A stretch of DNA of 64,000 nt from Escherichia coli (GTDB lineage Bacteria; Pseudomonadota; Gammaproteobacteria; Enterobacterales; Enterobacteriaceae). Location: the NCBI RefSeq assembly GCF_044647545.1, contig NZ_CP172818.1; one strand, given 5' to 3'. Both the position numbers and the translations under genes were made by a program. Numbering within the stretch: the first letter of the stretch is position 1; each line of letters opens with the position of its first letter. The notes below the pieces were generated by a model, which saw only the letters and a program-made list of their open reading frames with translations, ran no database searches and had not been told where the DNA came from. This document shows positions 2,189-10,678 of this stretch, piece after piece.

Positions 2189-2466
2189 ATTGTGGTGCTT
2201 TTTGTGGGAGTCATCCACTTACGCACTTTGTTTTGCCATGCCAGCAGTTAGCTTCTGCTGTAAAACTATTCATGCAGCAAACCTGCACTTCACCACAATG
2301 GTTAGCATACTTTTCCTGATTAAGATTTTGCCAAATATGCTAGCCATTGTTTCATGTATTGGACCTCCTTACTTTTTATTAAAGAGATCCAATATTCACT
2401 ACTCTGTCCGTATCTCTACTCAGGCATCAGCCTTCTTCGTTATCGTATACAGACGAGCGATGAATT

Positions 2467-2682
2467 TTAATCAGTAATGATGACATTTGCTGCTGCAGGA
2501 CCTTTAGCACCACTCTCTATAGAGAAGGTAACCTTTTGACCTTCAAATAAGGTTCGATAATTATCATTCTGAATCGCAGAAAAATGCACAAACACATCTT
2601 TACTACCATCAACAGGAGAAATAAAGCCGAAACCTTTATCAGCGTTAAACCATTTTACTAAACCAGTCATTTTATTTGACAT
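2467..2682 (-). CDS. cspB: Cold shock protein CspB (prophage-encoded CspA paralog)
   Basis: 71 aa; [15 protein letters not shown]1 and VFVHF RNP2 motifs; divergent with cspF. Confidence 0.95.
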
Positions 2683-2982
2683 TCTACATTCCTTAACTTG
2701 AGCCTTTCGGCATAAATGGTTTGCATAACAGAAACGACTTCGTACTTAATTGGAGAGACTCAAAGAAGGAATAAGTGAATAACACCTGAAATGAGAACTG
2801 CTTTAGTAAACTACTTCGTATATCGTCTGTTCTTCAAACCGACGCAATCATTAACGCATAGTTGAACATATGAAGCAATGTTTATTTTAGACATCCAGCC
2901 ATCTTCAACCCCATCAAAAAACTATAGCTTTCTTCAGGAACGTGTGTATAGTGCGCCAAGTTATCAGTATTAAGGAATTTTT

Positions 2983-3616: not shown

Positions 3617-4369
3617 TTATCTCGTCACTTTTCTTAATTGCGCCTCAGCATATGCTTCTTCCTGCCAGCACTTTGTCACCAGTTTATCAATGACATCTGC
3701 ATATCCTTTGTACCACTGATAATCCGTCAGGTCTGGTACCAGCTTCTGGACATGATGCCGCGCCAGTGTGGTTGGTAAACGGCTAAACCGATTTCCATTG
3801 CAACGCCCACAAATCTTATAAACAGGCGTGCCATGAAGCCGGGTCCTTTTTTCATCCAGGACAATACCTTTACCCTTACACCCTCTGCACGCTGTGCTGA
3901 CTTCTCCCTTACCATGACAATGCTGACATAGTTCCTTCACCCACTCTTCCTTGATAACAGATTCCCCGCTTCTGGAGTGTTTCACCACTTCGCGCAATAC
4001 ATTATGAAATCCAGTACCAGCACAATGCTCACAGCGAGCCTTACTTGCCGCAGACCTGGAATAATCAGCAAAGGCAAAATTCACAAGGTAAGGGATGATC
4101 TGTAACCGGGTTTCTTCACTCAATTTGTTCAATGTCGGGTTATCCAGTGCCATCGCGTAATTGAGCAGACCTTCAATCGCAAATTGAGGATCCTGAACAC
4201 CAACTTTTGCCAGGAATAAGGCAAACCCAAGCGGTGCTTTCGACTGCACCATCCCCTGCGCAGCCATCACATCCGTAATCGTTAAACCACCTGAGCCTGT
4301 CGCCGGTGCGTCATCGCTCAATTTTGGAGATTTTGGGGAGTAATATTTTGGTAAGGCTTCAAGGTTCAT
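3617..4369 (-). CDS. quuQ: Lambdoid late-gene antiterminator Q
   Basis: 250 aa; Cys-rich zinc-finger region (CQHCHGKG...CRGCKGKG, CGRCNGNRF) typical of Q proteins; upstream of lysis cassette on same strand. Confidence 0.85.
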   Translation of the reverse strand: MNLEALPKYYSPKSPKLSDDAPATGSGGLTITDVMAAQGMVQSKAPLGFALFLAKVGVQDPQFAIEGLLNYAMALDNPTLNKLSEETRLQIIPYLVNFAFADYSRSAASKARCEHCAGTGFHNVLREVVKHSRSGESVIKEEWVKELCQHCHGKGEVSTACRGCKGKGIVLDEKRTRLHGTPVYKICGRCNGNRFSRLPTTLARHHVQKLVPDLTDYQWYKGYADVIDKLVTKCWQEEAYAEAQLRKVTR

Positions 4370-6999: not shown

Positions 7000-7011
7000 G
7001 TCTTACACCTC

Positions 7012-7036
7012 TTGTAATTACAAATGTCATTACAAG
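7012..7036 (-). promoter_or_regulatory. relBE operator/promoter region (relO-like inverted hexad repeats)
   Basis: TTGTAATTACAA palindrome followed by TGTCATTACAAG, 13-37 nt upstream of relB start. Confidence 0.6.
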
Positions 7037-7329
7037 TATCGCACTACAACATGCTTAGGGCAAGTCACGAAGGAAGTCAGAAAGTAGTCGTAAGAACGGT
7101 GATCACTGTCCGCTTTGTGCCAGGAGCAGCCATTGCTAAGTCCATCCTGTATTGTGCAGGTCAGCTCGTTTTTAAAGAGTCCGGCCATCATCTTACTGGT
7201 ACAGACACCATATACTTTGTGACGGTCAGGCTACATATGCACAACTCAACTTATTCATCTATTTTTTGCTTTAGCATGTCAGTGTTGCTTTCTCGTCGGC
7301 GGGTGAGCGGTGACCTGACCTGTCGATAA
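7024..7329 (+). CDS. Hypothetical prophage ORF (possibly ydfV; strand and reality uncertain)
   Basis: 101 aa ORF; no clear RBS; overlaps relB promoter region. Confidence 0.25.
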   Translation: MSLQVSHYNMLRASHEGSQKVVVRTVITVRFVPGAAIAKSILYCAGQLVFKESGHHLTGTDTIYFVTVRLHMHNSTYSSIFCFSMSVLLSRRRVSGDLTCR

Positions 7330-7481
7330 AGGAACGTAACACGTTTTATGCAACACCCGCATGCGGCAGAAAATTATTGCCGAACGTTTACCCCTGTCAA
7401 CAAGCTTTACTTTCTGAGGCGCGCCAGCCCGCGAGGAAAACAATCTGAACATCAAACAATTAATGACACAAGAAATACGAT

Positions 7482-7508
7482 TAAAGATTTTTTTGTGCAT
7501 GCCGATAG
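7482..7508 (+). promoter_or_regulatory. Sigma-28 (FliA) class promoter for flxA
   Basis: TAAAGATT-N11-GCCGATAG vs consensus TAAAGTTT-N11-GCCGATAA, ~24 nt upstream of flxA start. Confidence 0.7.
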
Positions 7509-7531
7509 TGCTTTTTTAAAAGGAGAAATCT

Positions 7532-7864
7532 ATGTCTGTCACAATTCAGGGAAATACCTCAACCGTTATTTCAAACAACTCCGCCCCGGAAGGAACATCA
7601 GAAATAGCCAAAATCACAAGACAAATTCAGGTGCTGACTGAAAAGCTTGGGAAAATCTCATCGGAAGAGGGGATGACGACACAGCAGAAAAAAGAAATGG
7701 CTGCATTGGTACAGAAGCAAATTGAAAGCCTCTGGGCTCAACTGGAGCAGTTGTTAAGGCAGCAGGCAGAGAAAAAGAATGAAGACGCGACAGTTCAGCC
7801 TGATAAAAAAGAAGAGAAAAAAGACGATACAAATACCGCTGGCACCATTGATATTTACGTCTAA
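7532..7864 (+). CDS. flxA: FliA-regulated protein FlxA
   Basis: 110 aa, Q/K/E-rich coiled-coil-like; preceded by sigma-28 promoter and AGGAG RBS. Confidence 0.85.
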   Translation: MSVTIQGNTSTVISNNSAPEGTSEIAKITRQIQVLTEKLGKISSEEGMTTQQKKEMAALVQKQIESLWAQLEQLLRQQAEKKNEDATVQPDKKEEKKDDTNTAGTIDIYV

Positions 7865-7878
7865 GTGACAGCCGTATT

Positions 7879-7904
7879 GTGGCCCTCATCGGGCCACTTT
7901 TCGC
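7879..7904 (+). terminator. Rho-independent terminator downstream of flxA
   Basis: GTGGCCC-tcatc-GGGCCAC followed by TTTT. Confidence 0.65.
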
Positions 7905-8248
7905 CATCAGCCTTTTCTTTAAAGACATATTATCTTTGTATCATTTCTGATAGTTAACATTACAAGATATAAGTAATGGACGCACTCCCAATTAGTCTAT
8001 TTAAATCGCCACGAGTTTAACTGACAACCCATGATCAATTATGAATTGCAACTATTTCTGTAGTCACTTTTGTGGGGACAGTCCACAAAACTGCCAACTT
8101 CCGCTTCTTGCTCTTAGCGGACATTAGCATAGGCTATTTACCATAACGCCTCATTACGCGCACCGCCCAGACTGACTCAGCGCGTTTCTGGCATATCCCC
8201 GGTAAAACAAGTAACAAACCACCCGAAAATGAACACCAGAAACGCGAC

Positions 8249-8476
8249 TTAAGAATCTACCCTATGAATGGATATGCACTCAACCGAATCGATCTTGGTT
8301 TCAATCTTTTTTATCGGGATCAGGCTTCTTTTTAGGTAACTTCGGGGGCTTAACTTGCTGATGACTTTGCGTTCGGCGCGTAAGCCAGGGATGGTCAGCT
8401 TTAGGTTTAACATAGTATTTTGAGCGTAAATCAATACGGGCATTATCCACTCGTTCATGGACACTCTTTTCATCAT
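8249..8476 (-). CDS. Hypothetical prophage protein (intK/ydfW region)
   Basis: 75 aa ORF overlapping the next ORF by 4 nt. Confidence 0.35.
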   Translation of the reverse strand: MMKRVSMNEWIMPVLIYAQNTMLNLKLTIPGLRAERKVISKLSPRSYLKRSLIPIKKIETKIDSVECISIHRVDS

Positions 8477-8763
8477 CCAGTGGTAGCCTCCATAATTGCA
8501 GGCACTAGCGCCGTGAACTTTTCACGCTTATCCCTAGTGTCGATAGCCTTCCAGCGTTCGAATATCTTCACTCGATTAACGCCAAGCGCTCGCTGATCAA
8601 CCGCGCCACCTTCATCTGTGACACGCTGAACATCGATGTTCGGGCGCTCTTTCAAAGCCCAGAATGCTTCAGTGATTAATATCGTCGCCTGCTCCTGTGT
8701 CATTCCTGGTCGACATATCCAGGCATCCAGAGCCTCACGAGCCTGTTCAGGAGTGATTTTCAT
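8473..8763 (-). CDS. ydfX: Hypothetical prophage protein
   Basis: 96 aa ORF downstream of dicC on same strand. Confidence 0.45.
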   Translation of the reverse strand: MKITPEQAREALDAWICRPGMTQEQATILITEAFWALKERPNIDVQRVTDEGGAVDQRALGVNRVKIFERWKAIDTRDKREKFTALVPAIMEATTG

Positions 8764-10621: not shown

Positions 10622-10678
10622 TTTCTGGTGACGTTTGGCGGTATCAGTTTTACTCCGTGACTGCTCTGCCGCCCTTTT
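10622..10678 (+). ncRNA. dicF: DicF small regulatory RNA (ftsZ-targeting antisense sRNA)
   Basis: Sequence TTTCTGGTGACGTTTGGCGGTATCAGTTTTACTCCGTGACTGCTCTGCCGCCCTTTTT matches DicF as recalled, ending in hairpin plus T-run; exact processed ends not determinable. Confidence 0.85.

What the first reader, a model, noticed from the sequence alone, without database searches (positions are those of the whole stretch)
7482..7864. Host flagellar sigma factor promoter driving a prophage gene
A near-consensus sigma-28 promoter (TAAAGATT-N11-GCCGATAG) precedes flxA inside the prophage, indicating integration of a prophage gene into the host flagellar regulon.
Basis: partly seen in the sequence, partly recalled or inferred. 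Interest (0 to 1): 0.25.

Follow-up and report, generated by a model that had tools for sequence, protein, structure and literature searches.

The report
Known FliA promoter of prophage flxA

Summary
TAAAGATT-N11-GCCGATAG lies at 7482-7508 (+) and occurs once in the window. It is followed by a Shine-Dalgarno sequence, the 110-aa flxA ORF (7532-7864, Pfam FlxA) and a hairpin. The setting is the Qin prophage of K-12-type E. coli (hokD-relBE-ydfV-flxA-dicC-dicA). A FliA weight matrix built without this site ranks it first in the 64 kb.

Ide & Kutsukake (1997) defined flxA as FliA-dependent. Fitzgerald et al. (2014) list this exact 28-mer as a FliA ChIP-seq site, with flxA RNA at 280 in wild type and 2 in ΔfliA. 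Zhao et al. (2007) and a genomic SELEX study (2017) agree.

One addition comes from comparison. The sigma-28 promoter is a feature of the whole FlxA family. In 43 of 45 chromosomal flxA-like loci, which lie between gltX and yfeR in more than 20 enterobacterial genera and in 1317 E. coli genomes, the upstream site is the best or second-best FliA-matrix hit of the locus. Its motif ends 25-32 nt before the start codon in all but one. Homology among mobile copies starts just upstream of the -35 element. The prophage therefore most likely carries a promoter-plus-gene cassette, rather than a phage gene that later acquired a host promoter. FlxA's function remains unknown.

The parts
7482..7489 (+). 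-35 element of the FliA (sigma-28) promoter, TAAAGATT
   Evidence: Exact pattern match. Its first five bases (TAAAG, 7482-7486) are invariant in the alignment with diverged mobile homologues; positions 7487-7489 vary. This is the same 8-mer as the flgMN class-3 promoter in PMC4183435 Table 2.
7490..7500 (+). 11-nt spacer between the two 8-mers (TTTTTGTGCAT)
   Evidence: The spacing is fixed but the sequence varies among homologues.
7501..7508 (+). -10 element GCCGATAG
   Evidence: GCCGATA is invariant in the mobile-clade alignment and nearly invariant in 45 chromosomal loci.
7520..7525 (+). Shine-Dalgarno sequence AAGGAG, 6 nt before the ATG
   Evidence: Read directly from the sequence. GGAGAAAT is invariant in alignment A1.
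7532..7864 (+). flxA coding sequence, 110 aa plus stop
   Evidence: ORF list; Pfam PF14282 FlxA, E 2.3e-14; annotated flxA in RefSeq K-12 derivatives; PHROG 11044, unknown function.
7879..7901 (+). Terminator-like hairpin GUGGCCC-UCAUC-GGGCCAC followed by UUUU
   Evidence: RNA fold gives -17.3 kcal/mol, z = -2.75 against shuffles. The consensus terminator scan did not call it because the U-run has only 4 bases. Function is inferred.
7394..7875 (+). Extent of the promoter-plus-gene cassette shared with an unrelated integrative island next to icd in Enterobacter sp. HG048 (88% identity)
   Evidence: blastn, context. Homology to a 65%-identical homologue (L006) spans window 7472-7980, so it starts 10 nt upstream of the -35 element.

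Best explanation
Window 7482-7864 is the flxA transcription unit of the cryptic lambdoid prophage Qin of E. coli K-12-type strains. RNA polymerase carrying the flagellar sigma factor FliA (sigma-28) recognises TAAAGATT (-35) and GCCGATAG (-10), which are 11 nt apart. It starts transcription a few bases downstream of 7508, an inferred start that leaves a 5' UTR of roughly 15-20 nt containing AAGGAG. The product is a monocistronic flxA mRNA that probably ends at the hairpin at 7879-7901. flxA is therefore a class-3 gene of the FlhDC > FliA/FlgM cascade. It is expressed only once hook-basal bodies are complete and the anti-sigma factor FlgM has been exported; this timing follows from established knowledge of the cascade. 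The 110-aa product has a disordered N-terminus, a helical hairpin and a conserved C-terminal IDIY(V/I) motif. Its function is unknown, and it is reported to be dispensable for motility. Comparison shows that the sigma-28 promoter is a property of the entire FlxA family. The prophage copy is therefore best seen as a self-contained promoter-plus-gene cassette (a 'moron') carried by the phage, probably of host-chromosomal ancestry, not as a phage gene that later evolved a host promoter.
For: Shown here:
- The motif is unique in the window and far above chance.
- It is the top leave-one-out FliA-matrix hit in 64 kb.
- The geometry is right: same strand, motif end 23 nt before the ATG, Shine-Dalgarno present.
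- The product is in the FlxA family and the context is Qin.

Shown in the literature:
- FliA ChIP-seq peak with the identical 28-mer, and flxA RNA of 280 versus 2 in the fliA deletion (PMC4183435).
- -28.4-fold in the fliA deletion and +8.2-fold on FliA induction (PMC1935009).
- A holoenzyme-only genomic SELEX peak between ydfV and flxA (PMC5493296).
- Original identification by Ide & Kutsukake 1997.

Comparative evidence:
- TAAAG and GCCGATA are invariant in mobile homologues down to 65% protein identity, while the flanks diverge.
- 45 of the 47 loci returned by the scan are chromosomal gltX-flxA-like-yfeR loci from more than 20 genera. In 39 of these 45 the best upstream FliA-matrix hit is the top hit of the whole ~8-kb locus, and in 43 of 45 it is in the top two. 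The median score is 16.8 bits. Among those 43 the motif ends 25-32 nt before the likely ATG in all but one.
- Column conservation is near zero in the flanks and spacer and near maximal at TCAAG and TGCCGATA.
- Cassette homology with an unrelated island is confined to window 7394-7875.
- An inducible-type phage genome, PhiR42_1, carries the same cassette.
Against: Nothing contradicts FliA dependence. Several steps are weaker.
- The transcription start site and the terminator are inferred, not read from data, and the terminator scan did not call the hairpin.
- The direction of transfer (chromosome to phage) is an inference. The mobile clade shares only 27-41% identity with the chromosomal clade and forms its own branch in a neighbour-joining tree of a 110-aa protein. 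The tree cannot root the event.
- The chromosomal promoters are predicted, not tested. One syntenic locus (Winslowiella) lacks a motif and another (Mixta) has a weak one.
- FlxA has no known function.
Confidence: 0.95

Rival explanations
1. The gene began as a true phage gene and acquired a sigma-28 promoter de novo after lysogeny. This is the evolutionary reading implied by 'integration of a prophage gene into the host regulon'. The chromosomal copies would then be domesticated descendants of a phage gene.
For: Most members of the mobile clade are found in prophages or islands. FlxA has its own PHROG family. The neighbour-joining tree separates the mobile and chromosomal clades without a root.
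Against: The chromosomal copy sits at one syntenic site (gltX-tRNAs-flxA-like-yfeR-yfeH-ypeB-ligA) in more than 20 genera, as expected for vertical inheritance. Both clades carry the promoter at the same distance from the ATG. Homology among mobile copies begins 10-90 nt upstream of the -35 element, so promoter and gene moved together. In the phage collection the protein was found in only 1 of 50,697 records.
Confidence: 0.15
2. The motif is a chance match, and flxA is transcribed from phage or sigma-70 promoters. Its FliA dependence would then be indirect.
For: Sigma-28-like motifs do occur without measurable regulation. Many ChIP sites in PMC4183435 Table 2 show no expression change. Two other window sites score 17-19 bits yet are not among the published sites.
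Against: 0.02 sites of this quality are expected per window. FliA binds here in vivo, and in vitro with holoenzyme alone. flxA RNA falls from 280 to 2 in the fliA deletion. The scan found no + strand sigma-70-like promoter between 7000 and 7532. The motif is conserved across diverged homologues.
Confidence: 0.02
3. The main product of the promoter is a regulatory RNA (a 5' or 3' UTR-derived sRNA) rather than the FlxA protein, as with other sigma-28-dependent UTR sRNAs.
For: Sigma-28-dependent UTR-derived sRNAs exist in E. coli (title and abstract of PMC10578931). FlxA has no phenotype in motility, as stated in the title of Ide & Kutsukake, cited.
Against: No Rfam family matches this region. 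The protein sequence is conserved over the whole family, including a C-terminal IDIY(V/I) motif, whereas DNA identity between clades is low. A strong Shine-Dalgarno sequence is conserved. A proteomics study treats FlxA as detected, reporting opposite regulation at the protein and mRNA levels (PMC6551532).
Confidence: 0.03

Closest known systems
flxA (b1566) promoter of E. coli K-12 Qin prophage (Ide & Kutsukake 1997; Fitzgerald et al. 2014)
   Same: Identical. The window is 100% identical to K-12 derivatives over 7200-8100. The published FliA motif 28-mer is the sequence at 7482-7509.
   Different: Nothing.
Canonical class-3 flagellar promoters (flgMN, tar, motA, tsr, yhjH)
   Same: Same two-block architecture and spacing. 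The -35 8-mer TAAAGATT is the same as at flgMN. The matrix score is within the range of functional sites.
   Different: The last base of the -10 element is G instead of A. The gene has no known role in flagella or chemotaxis and lies in a prophage.
ykfB in the CP4-6 prophage, another prophage gene assigned to the FliA regulon
   Same: A cryptic-prophage gene with a FliA ChIP site and reduced expression in the fliA deletion.
   Different: The ykfB site is intragenic (inside yafY) with a poor -35 element, and the effect is modest (118 to 42). flxA has a dedicated intergenic promoter and drops about 140-fold.
Chromosomal FlxA-like genes between gltX and yfeR (e.g. E. coli WP_000201404.1; Enterobacter, Citrobacter, Kluyvera, Kosakonia and others)
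   Same: Same Pfam family, similar length (102-121 aa) and the same predicted sigma-28 promoter 25-32 nt upstream of the ATG.
   Different: Only 27-41% protein identity to Qin FlxA. The -35 element is usually TCAAG rather than TAAAG. The location is a fixed chromosomal site, not a mobile element. I found no experimental data on their regulation.
Phage 'morons' (autonomous promoter-gene-terminator insertions in lambdoid phages)
   Same: A compact unit with its own promoter and a hairpin at its end. It sits between phage modules (relBE/ydfV and the dicC-dicA immunity region). It is expressed from the lysogen under host control. The same unit appears in unrelated mobile elements.
   Different: Classical morons use sigma-70 promoters; this one uses an alternative host sigma factor. 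No lysogen fitness effect has been demonstrated.

Membership tests
FliA (sigma-28) dependent class-3 promoter | Two-block motif TAAAGTTT-N11-GCCGATAA with fixed spacing | tested here: met
   14 of 16 consensus positions match at 7482-7508. It is the only site with 2 or fewer mismatches in 64 kb, against 0.02 expected. It is the top leave-one-out matrix hit.
FliA (sigma-28) dependent class-3 promoter | Correct strand and distance upstream of a gene with a ribosome-binding site | tested here: met
   The motif is on the + strand. Its -10 element ends 23 nt before the flxA ATG, and AAGGAG lies at 7520-7525.
FliA (sigma-28) dependent class-3 promoter | FliA holoenzyme binds the site | not testable with these tools
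   Documented in the literature: ChIP-seq fold-above-threshold score 16 with the identical motif (PMC4183435), and a genomic SELEX peak of 23.2 between ydfV and flxA (PMC5493296).
FliA (sigma-28) dependent class-3 promoter | Transcription of the downstream gene depends on fliA | not testable with these tools
   Documented in the literature: 280 versus 2 in RNA-seq; -28.4-fold in the fliA deletion and +8.2-fold on induction; Ide & Kutsukake 1997.
FliA (sigma-28) dependent class-3 promoter | Motif conserved in orthologous or homologous loci while flanks diverge | tested here: met
   Alignment A1. Of 45 chromosomal loci, 39 have the upstream site as the top-ranked hit and 43 have it in the top two. 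Conservation is confined to the -35 and -10 blocks.
FlxA protein family (Pfam PF14282) | Score above the Pfam gathering threshold over most of the model | tested here: met
   53.8 bits against a cut-off of 26.3; residues 7-101 match model positions 2-96 of 101.
Qin cryptic lambdoid prophage | Characteristic gene order around the site (rem, hokD, relE, relB, ydfV, flxA, ydfW, ydfX, dicC, dicA, dicF, dicB, truncated integrase) | tested here: met
   RefSeq annotation of the 100%-identical DH1 region. DicF RNA lies at window 10623-10674.
Phage moron (autonomous transcription unit carried by a phage) | Own promoter independent of phage regulatory circuits | tested here: met
   A sigma-28 promoter is present, and literature shows expression in the lysogen under FliA control.
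Phage moron (autonomous transcription unit carried by a phage) | Own factor-independent terminator | tested here: inconclusive
   A 7-bp GC-rich hairpin plus UUUU at 7879-7901 folds at -17.3 kcal/mol with z = -2.75, but the consensus terminator scan did not call it.
Phage moron (autonomous transcription unit carried by a phage) | Present as a discrete unit in otherwise unrelated genomic contexts | tested here: met
   Homology to the Enterobacter icd-adjacent island is limited to window 7394-7875, and to L006 it is limited to 7472-7980.

The most novel reading that the evidence does not exclude
FlxA is not a stray prophage gene. It belongs to a conserved, so far uncharacterised class-3 flagellar-regulon gene family of Enterobacteriaceae. 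The ancestral copy sits between gltX and yfeR with a conserved sigma-28 promoter. K-12-type E. coli lack that copy (xapR-xapB-xapA-yfeN lies there) and carry only the diverged, promoter-bearing copy imported on Qin-like phages. This conservation argues for a real, untested function linked to late flagellar assembly, for example a small exported or chaperone-like coiled-coil protein.
Probability: 0.5. Interest if true: 0.35.

Novelty: already known. Interest (0 to 1): 0.1.

Why it matters
The finding itself adds nothing new. The modest added value is the comparative result. The sigma-28 promoter accompanies flxA-like genes at a syntenic chromosomal site in more than 20 enterobacterial genera and in about a quarter of complete E. 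coli genomes. That conservation is evidence that this small protein of unknown function is under selection as part of the flagellar programme, and it makes the protein a reasonable candidate for functional study. It also recasts the prophage copy as a mobile promoter-plus-gene cassette.

Tried and rejected
- The sigma-70/terminator consensus scan of 7000-8500 found no + strand sigma-70-like promoter upstream of flxA and did not call the downstream hairpin. I folded the hairpin separately.
- A phage-collection protein search found only one record (PhiR42_1), so phage genomes were of little use for comparison.
- The word-indexed protein search returned almost only near-identical E. coli sequences. 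The exhaustive representative search was needed to reach relatives at 30-45% identity.
- The first attempt to scan genome contigs with the broad alignment A2 failed for lack of a conserved stretch. The narrower alignment A3 worked.
- A profile search against solved structures gave only generic or designed coiled-coil hits. The AlphaFold model has low confidence (pLDDT 63.5) and shows a helical hairpin with disordered ends. I ran no fold search, because such a model gives meaningless matches.
- The ETEC variant H20 turned out to be a simple ydfV'-'dicC deletion and says nothing about cassette boundaries.
- I first thought the prophage and chromosomal flxA genes were nearly mutually exclusive in E. 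coli. Exact counts give 138 genomes with both against about 291 expected under independence. This roughly two-fold depletion is readily explained by phylogroup structure, so I dropped the idea.
- Rfam found no RNA family in the flxA region, and there were no meaningful repeats.

Full report
**Observation.** The region 7200-8100 reads as the first-stage reader described.
- TAAAGATT-N11-GCCGATAG occupies 7482-7508 on the + strand. It is the only match in the window, and none occurs in 100 dinucleotide-preserving shuffles.
- Against the sigma-28 consensus TAAAGTTT-N11-GCCGATAA it has two mismatches. It is the only site in 64 kb with two or fewer; 0.02 are expected. At three or fewer mismatches 0.70 are expected, so the quality of the match matters.
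- AAGGAG lies at 7520-7525. The ATG of a 110-codon ORF is at 7532 and its stop codon ends at 7864.
- A 7-bp GC-rich hairpin followed by UUUU lies at 7879-7901. It folds at -17.3 kcal/mol with z = -2.75. The simple terminator scan did not call it.

**Identity.**
- The ORF matches Pfam PF14282 (FlxA) at 53.8 bits against a cut-off of 26.3.
- Window 7200-8100 is 100% identical to E. coli K-12 derivatives (DH1, JM109, WG5), where the gene is annotated flxA.
- The DH1 annotation shows the Qin prophage order: cspI, rzpQ, rrrQ, essD, cspB, cspF, ydfT, ydfU, rem, hokD, relE, relB, ydfV, flxA, ydfW, ydfX, dicC, dicA, ydfABC, dicB, ydfD, a truncated exonuclease, IS2 and a truncated integrase, then rspBA.
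- Rfam finds DicF at 10623-10674 and the cspA-type thermoregulator at 2451-2843, consistent with Qin.

I built a weight matrix from the FliA ChIP-seq motifs in Table 2 of Fitzgerald et al. 2014, leaving flxA out.
- The flxA site is the best hit in the window on either strand, at 19.7 bits with the 51-site matrix and 22.0 bits with the 24 strong sites.
- The best score in 100 Markov-1 random 64-kb sequences averages 14.8 +/- 2.0 and 14.7 +/- 2.3 bits. The highest of those 100 random maxima are 20.6 and 21.3 bits, so the margin over the extreme random tail is small.
- The score lies within the range of functional class-3 promoters.

**Expression in fliA mutant versus wild type: already published.**
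- Fitzgerald et al. list the identical 28-mer TAAAGATTTTTTTGTGCATGCCGATAGT as the FliA motif under a ChIP-seq peak (fold-above-threshold score 16). Normalised flxA expression is 280 in motile MG1655 and 2 in the fliA deletion, marked significant (PMC4183435).
- Zhao et al. 2007 report flxA ('Qin prophage') at -28.4-fold in a fliA deletion and +8.2-fold five minutes after FliA induction (PMC1935009).
- Shimada et al. 2017 found a FliA-holoenzyme genomic SELEX peak in the ydfV>flxA spacer (PMC5493296).
- All trace back to Ide & Kutsukake 1997, whose title states that the gene is FliA-dependent but dispensable for motility (reference 31; also cited).

**Mechanism.**
- Shown by sequence and literature: FliA-RNA polymerase binds the two blocks and transcribes flxA.
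- From established knowledge of the FlhDC > FliA/FlgM cascade: expression is class 3. It is delayed until hook-basal-body completion allows export of FlgM.
- Inferred: the start site lies a few bases after 7508, the mRNA is monocistronic, and it terminates at the 7879-7901 hairpin.
- No + strand sigma-70-like promoter was found between 7000 and 7532. Together with the 140-fold drop in the fliA deletion, this suggests FliA supplies essentially all flxA transcription under the conditions tested.

**Beyond the finding: the mobile copies.**
- An apparently intact lambdoid phage, PhiR42_1 from ECOR13, carries an identical FlxA in the same relBE-ydfV-flxA setting.
- An 85%-identical copy lies in an integrase/DUF3800 island next to icd in Enterobacter sp. 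HG048. A 65%-identical copy lies next to a transposase fragment.
- In the alignment of their upstream regions, TAAAG and GCCGATA are invariant with the same spacing, while the spacer and flanks change.
- Homology between Qin and the Enterobacter island is confined to window 7394-7875. Homology with the 65% copy is confined to 7472-7980, so it begins 10 nt upstream of the -35 element. Promoter and gene travel as one unit.

**The chromosomal copies.**
- An exhaustive protein search found relatives of about 105-120 aa at 30-45% identity. Their contigs showed a recurring context of gltX, flxA-like, LysR regulator, SBF transporter, QSregVF_b protein and ligA.
- A scan of one genome per species returned 47 loci. 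Of these, 45 show the yfeR-yfeH-ypeB side of this synteny, with gltX on the other side wherever the fetched stretch reaches it. They come from more than 20 genera: Enterobacter, Leclercia, Lelliottia, Citrobacter, Kluyvera, Kosakonia, Cedecea, Yokenella, Buttiauxella, Pluralibacter, Trabulsiella, Siccibacter, Phytobacter, Mixta, Winslowiella and others.
- With the leave-one-out FliA matrix, the best hit in the 260 nt upstream of the gene is the top hit of the entire locus on both strands in 39 of 45 loci. It is in the top two in 43 of 45. The median score is 16.8 bits.
- Among those 43 loci the motif ends 25-32 nt before the likely ATG in all but one, once first-ATG start calls that gave over-long N-termini had been revised.
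- Anchored on the motif, column information is about zero in the 30 nt upstream and in the spacer. It is near maximal at TCAAG and TGCCGATA, a clean phylogenetic footprint.
- Winslowiella has no motif and Mixta has a weak one.

**E. coli itself.**
- 1317 of 5426 complete genomes, including O157:H7 strains, carry a chromosomal flxA-like gene (WP_000201404.1, 113 aa) between the valU-lysV tRNA cluster/RtT and yfeR.
- It has TCAAGTTCCTTGTTCTTCTGCCGATATT 27 nt before its ATG.
- In K-12 (DH1) that position holds xapR-xapB-xapA-yfeN instead.
- The Qin-type cassette is in 1200 genomes and the union is 2379, so 138 genomes carry both against about 291 expected under independence. This two-fold depletion needs no explanation beyond population structure.

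**Origin.** In a neighbour-joining tree the mobile clade (Qin, the Enterobacter island, P0121, P0123, P0139) separates from the chromosomal clade, with 27-41% identity between them. A 110-residue coiled-coil protein cannot root this reliably. The fixed synteny of the chromosomal copies, the shared promoter geometry and the cassette-limited homology of the mobile copies make one reading more likely. In this reading a host-type, already FliA-dependent gene was picked up and spread by mobile elements. The alternative is that a phage gene evolved a sigma-28 promoter after lysogeny. I give the de novo route about 0.15.

**The protein.** The family alignment shows a variable Ser/Thr/Gly-rich N-terminus, a Gln/Ala/Leu/Lys-rich central segment predicted as helix and a conserved C-terminal IDIY(V/I). 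AlphaFold2 with this alignment gives a low-confidence model (pLDDT 63.5). Residues 1-21 and 86-110 are disordered, with helices at 24-42 and 50-86. A profile search of solved structures returns only generic or designed coiled coils. PHROGs has a family (phrog_11044) of unknown function. No paper in the library uses the term 'FlxA-like'. Function remains unknown; any link to flagellar export or chaperoning is speculation.

**Verdict.** The comparative extension is a small, checkable addition and not a discovery about this window.

Noticed in passing
L061 2800-3245 (E. coli strain 1190), L013-L058; absent from the K-12 locus L062 6043-10489: A chromosomal flxA-like paralogue with its own predicted sigma-28 promoter lies between gltX/tRNA-Val-Lys/RtT and yfeR. 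It occurs in more than 20 enterobacterial genera and in 1317 of 5426 E. coli genomes. K-12 has xapR-xapB-xapA-yfeN at that site instead. I found no literature on it in the library.
   Followed up: yes
window 7400-7373 (- strand): A near-consensus sigma-70-like promoter (TTGACA-16-AATAAT, 11 of 12) points leftward, away from flxA and antisense to ydfV (towards relB). Its TTGACA (TGTCAA on the + strand) is conserved in the Enterobacter island copy of the cassette.
   Followed up: partly
window 12182-12155 (-) and 47577-47550 (-): Two further sites score 17-19 bits with the FliA matrix: TCCAGTCTTCGCGGTCGTTGTCGATAAC and TGAAAAATCGCGTGCATTTGCCGATATC. Neither is among the 52 published ChIP-seq sites. 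They are probably non-functional or unbound matches.
   Followed up: no
window 39596-39569 (-): The weak published FliA site upstream of pntA (TAATATTTTGCGAGTTCACGCCGAAATA) is present. Its distance from the flxA site in the window is about 377 bp longer than the distance between the two published NC_000913.2 motif centres. This may reflect an indel relative to that reference or an imprecise table entry.
   Followed up: no
hits H1/H32 and H46 (chicken E. coli strains Z1323CEC0013 and Z1323CEC0005): In these strains an IS1A element interrupts the flxA cassette; two FlxA-like fragments are annotated around the transposase.
   Followed up: no
L060 (ETEC L6_E562, NZ_LR883000.1) 3825-4161: A deletion fuses truncated ydfV to truncated dicC and removes flxA, ydfW and ydfX from an otherwise Qin-like prophage.
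   Followed up: partly
L002 (Escherichia phage PhiR42_1, PV340562.1): A 48.7-kb phage genome from ECOR13 carries the identical relBE-ydfV-flxA block, next to replication genes O and cII and a Q antiterminator. The cassette therefore also occurs in an apparently complete Qin-like phage, not only in the K-12 remnant.
   Followed up: partly
window 7024-7329 (+), ydfV: The 101-aa ORF annotated ydfV, directly upstream of flxA, has no Pfam or PHROG match. Whether it is a real gene is unclear.
   Followed up: no
window 2451-2843 (-) and 10623-10674 (+): Rfam finds a cspA-type thermoregulator 5' UTR in the cspB region and the DicF sRNA. Both are known Qin features.
   Followed up: no
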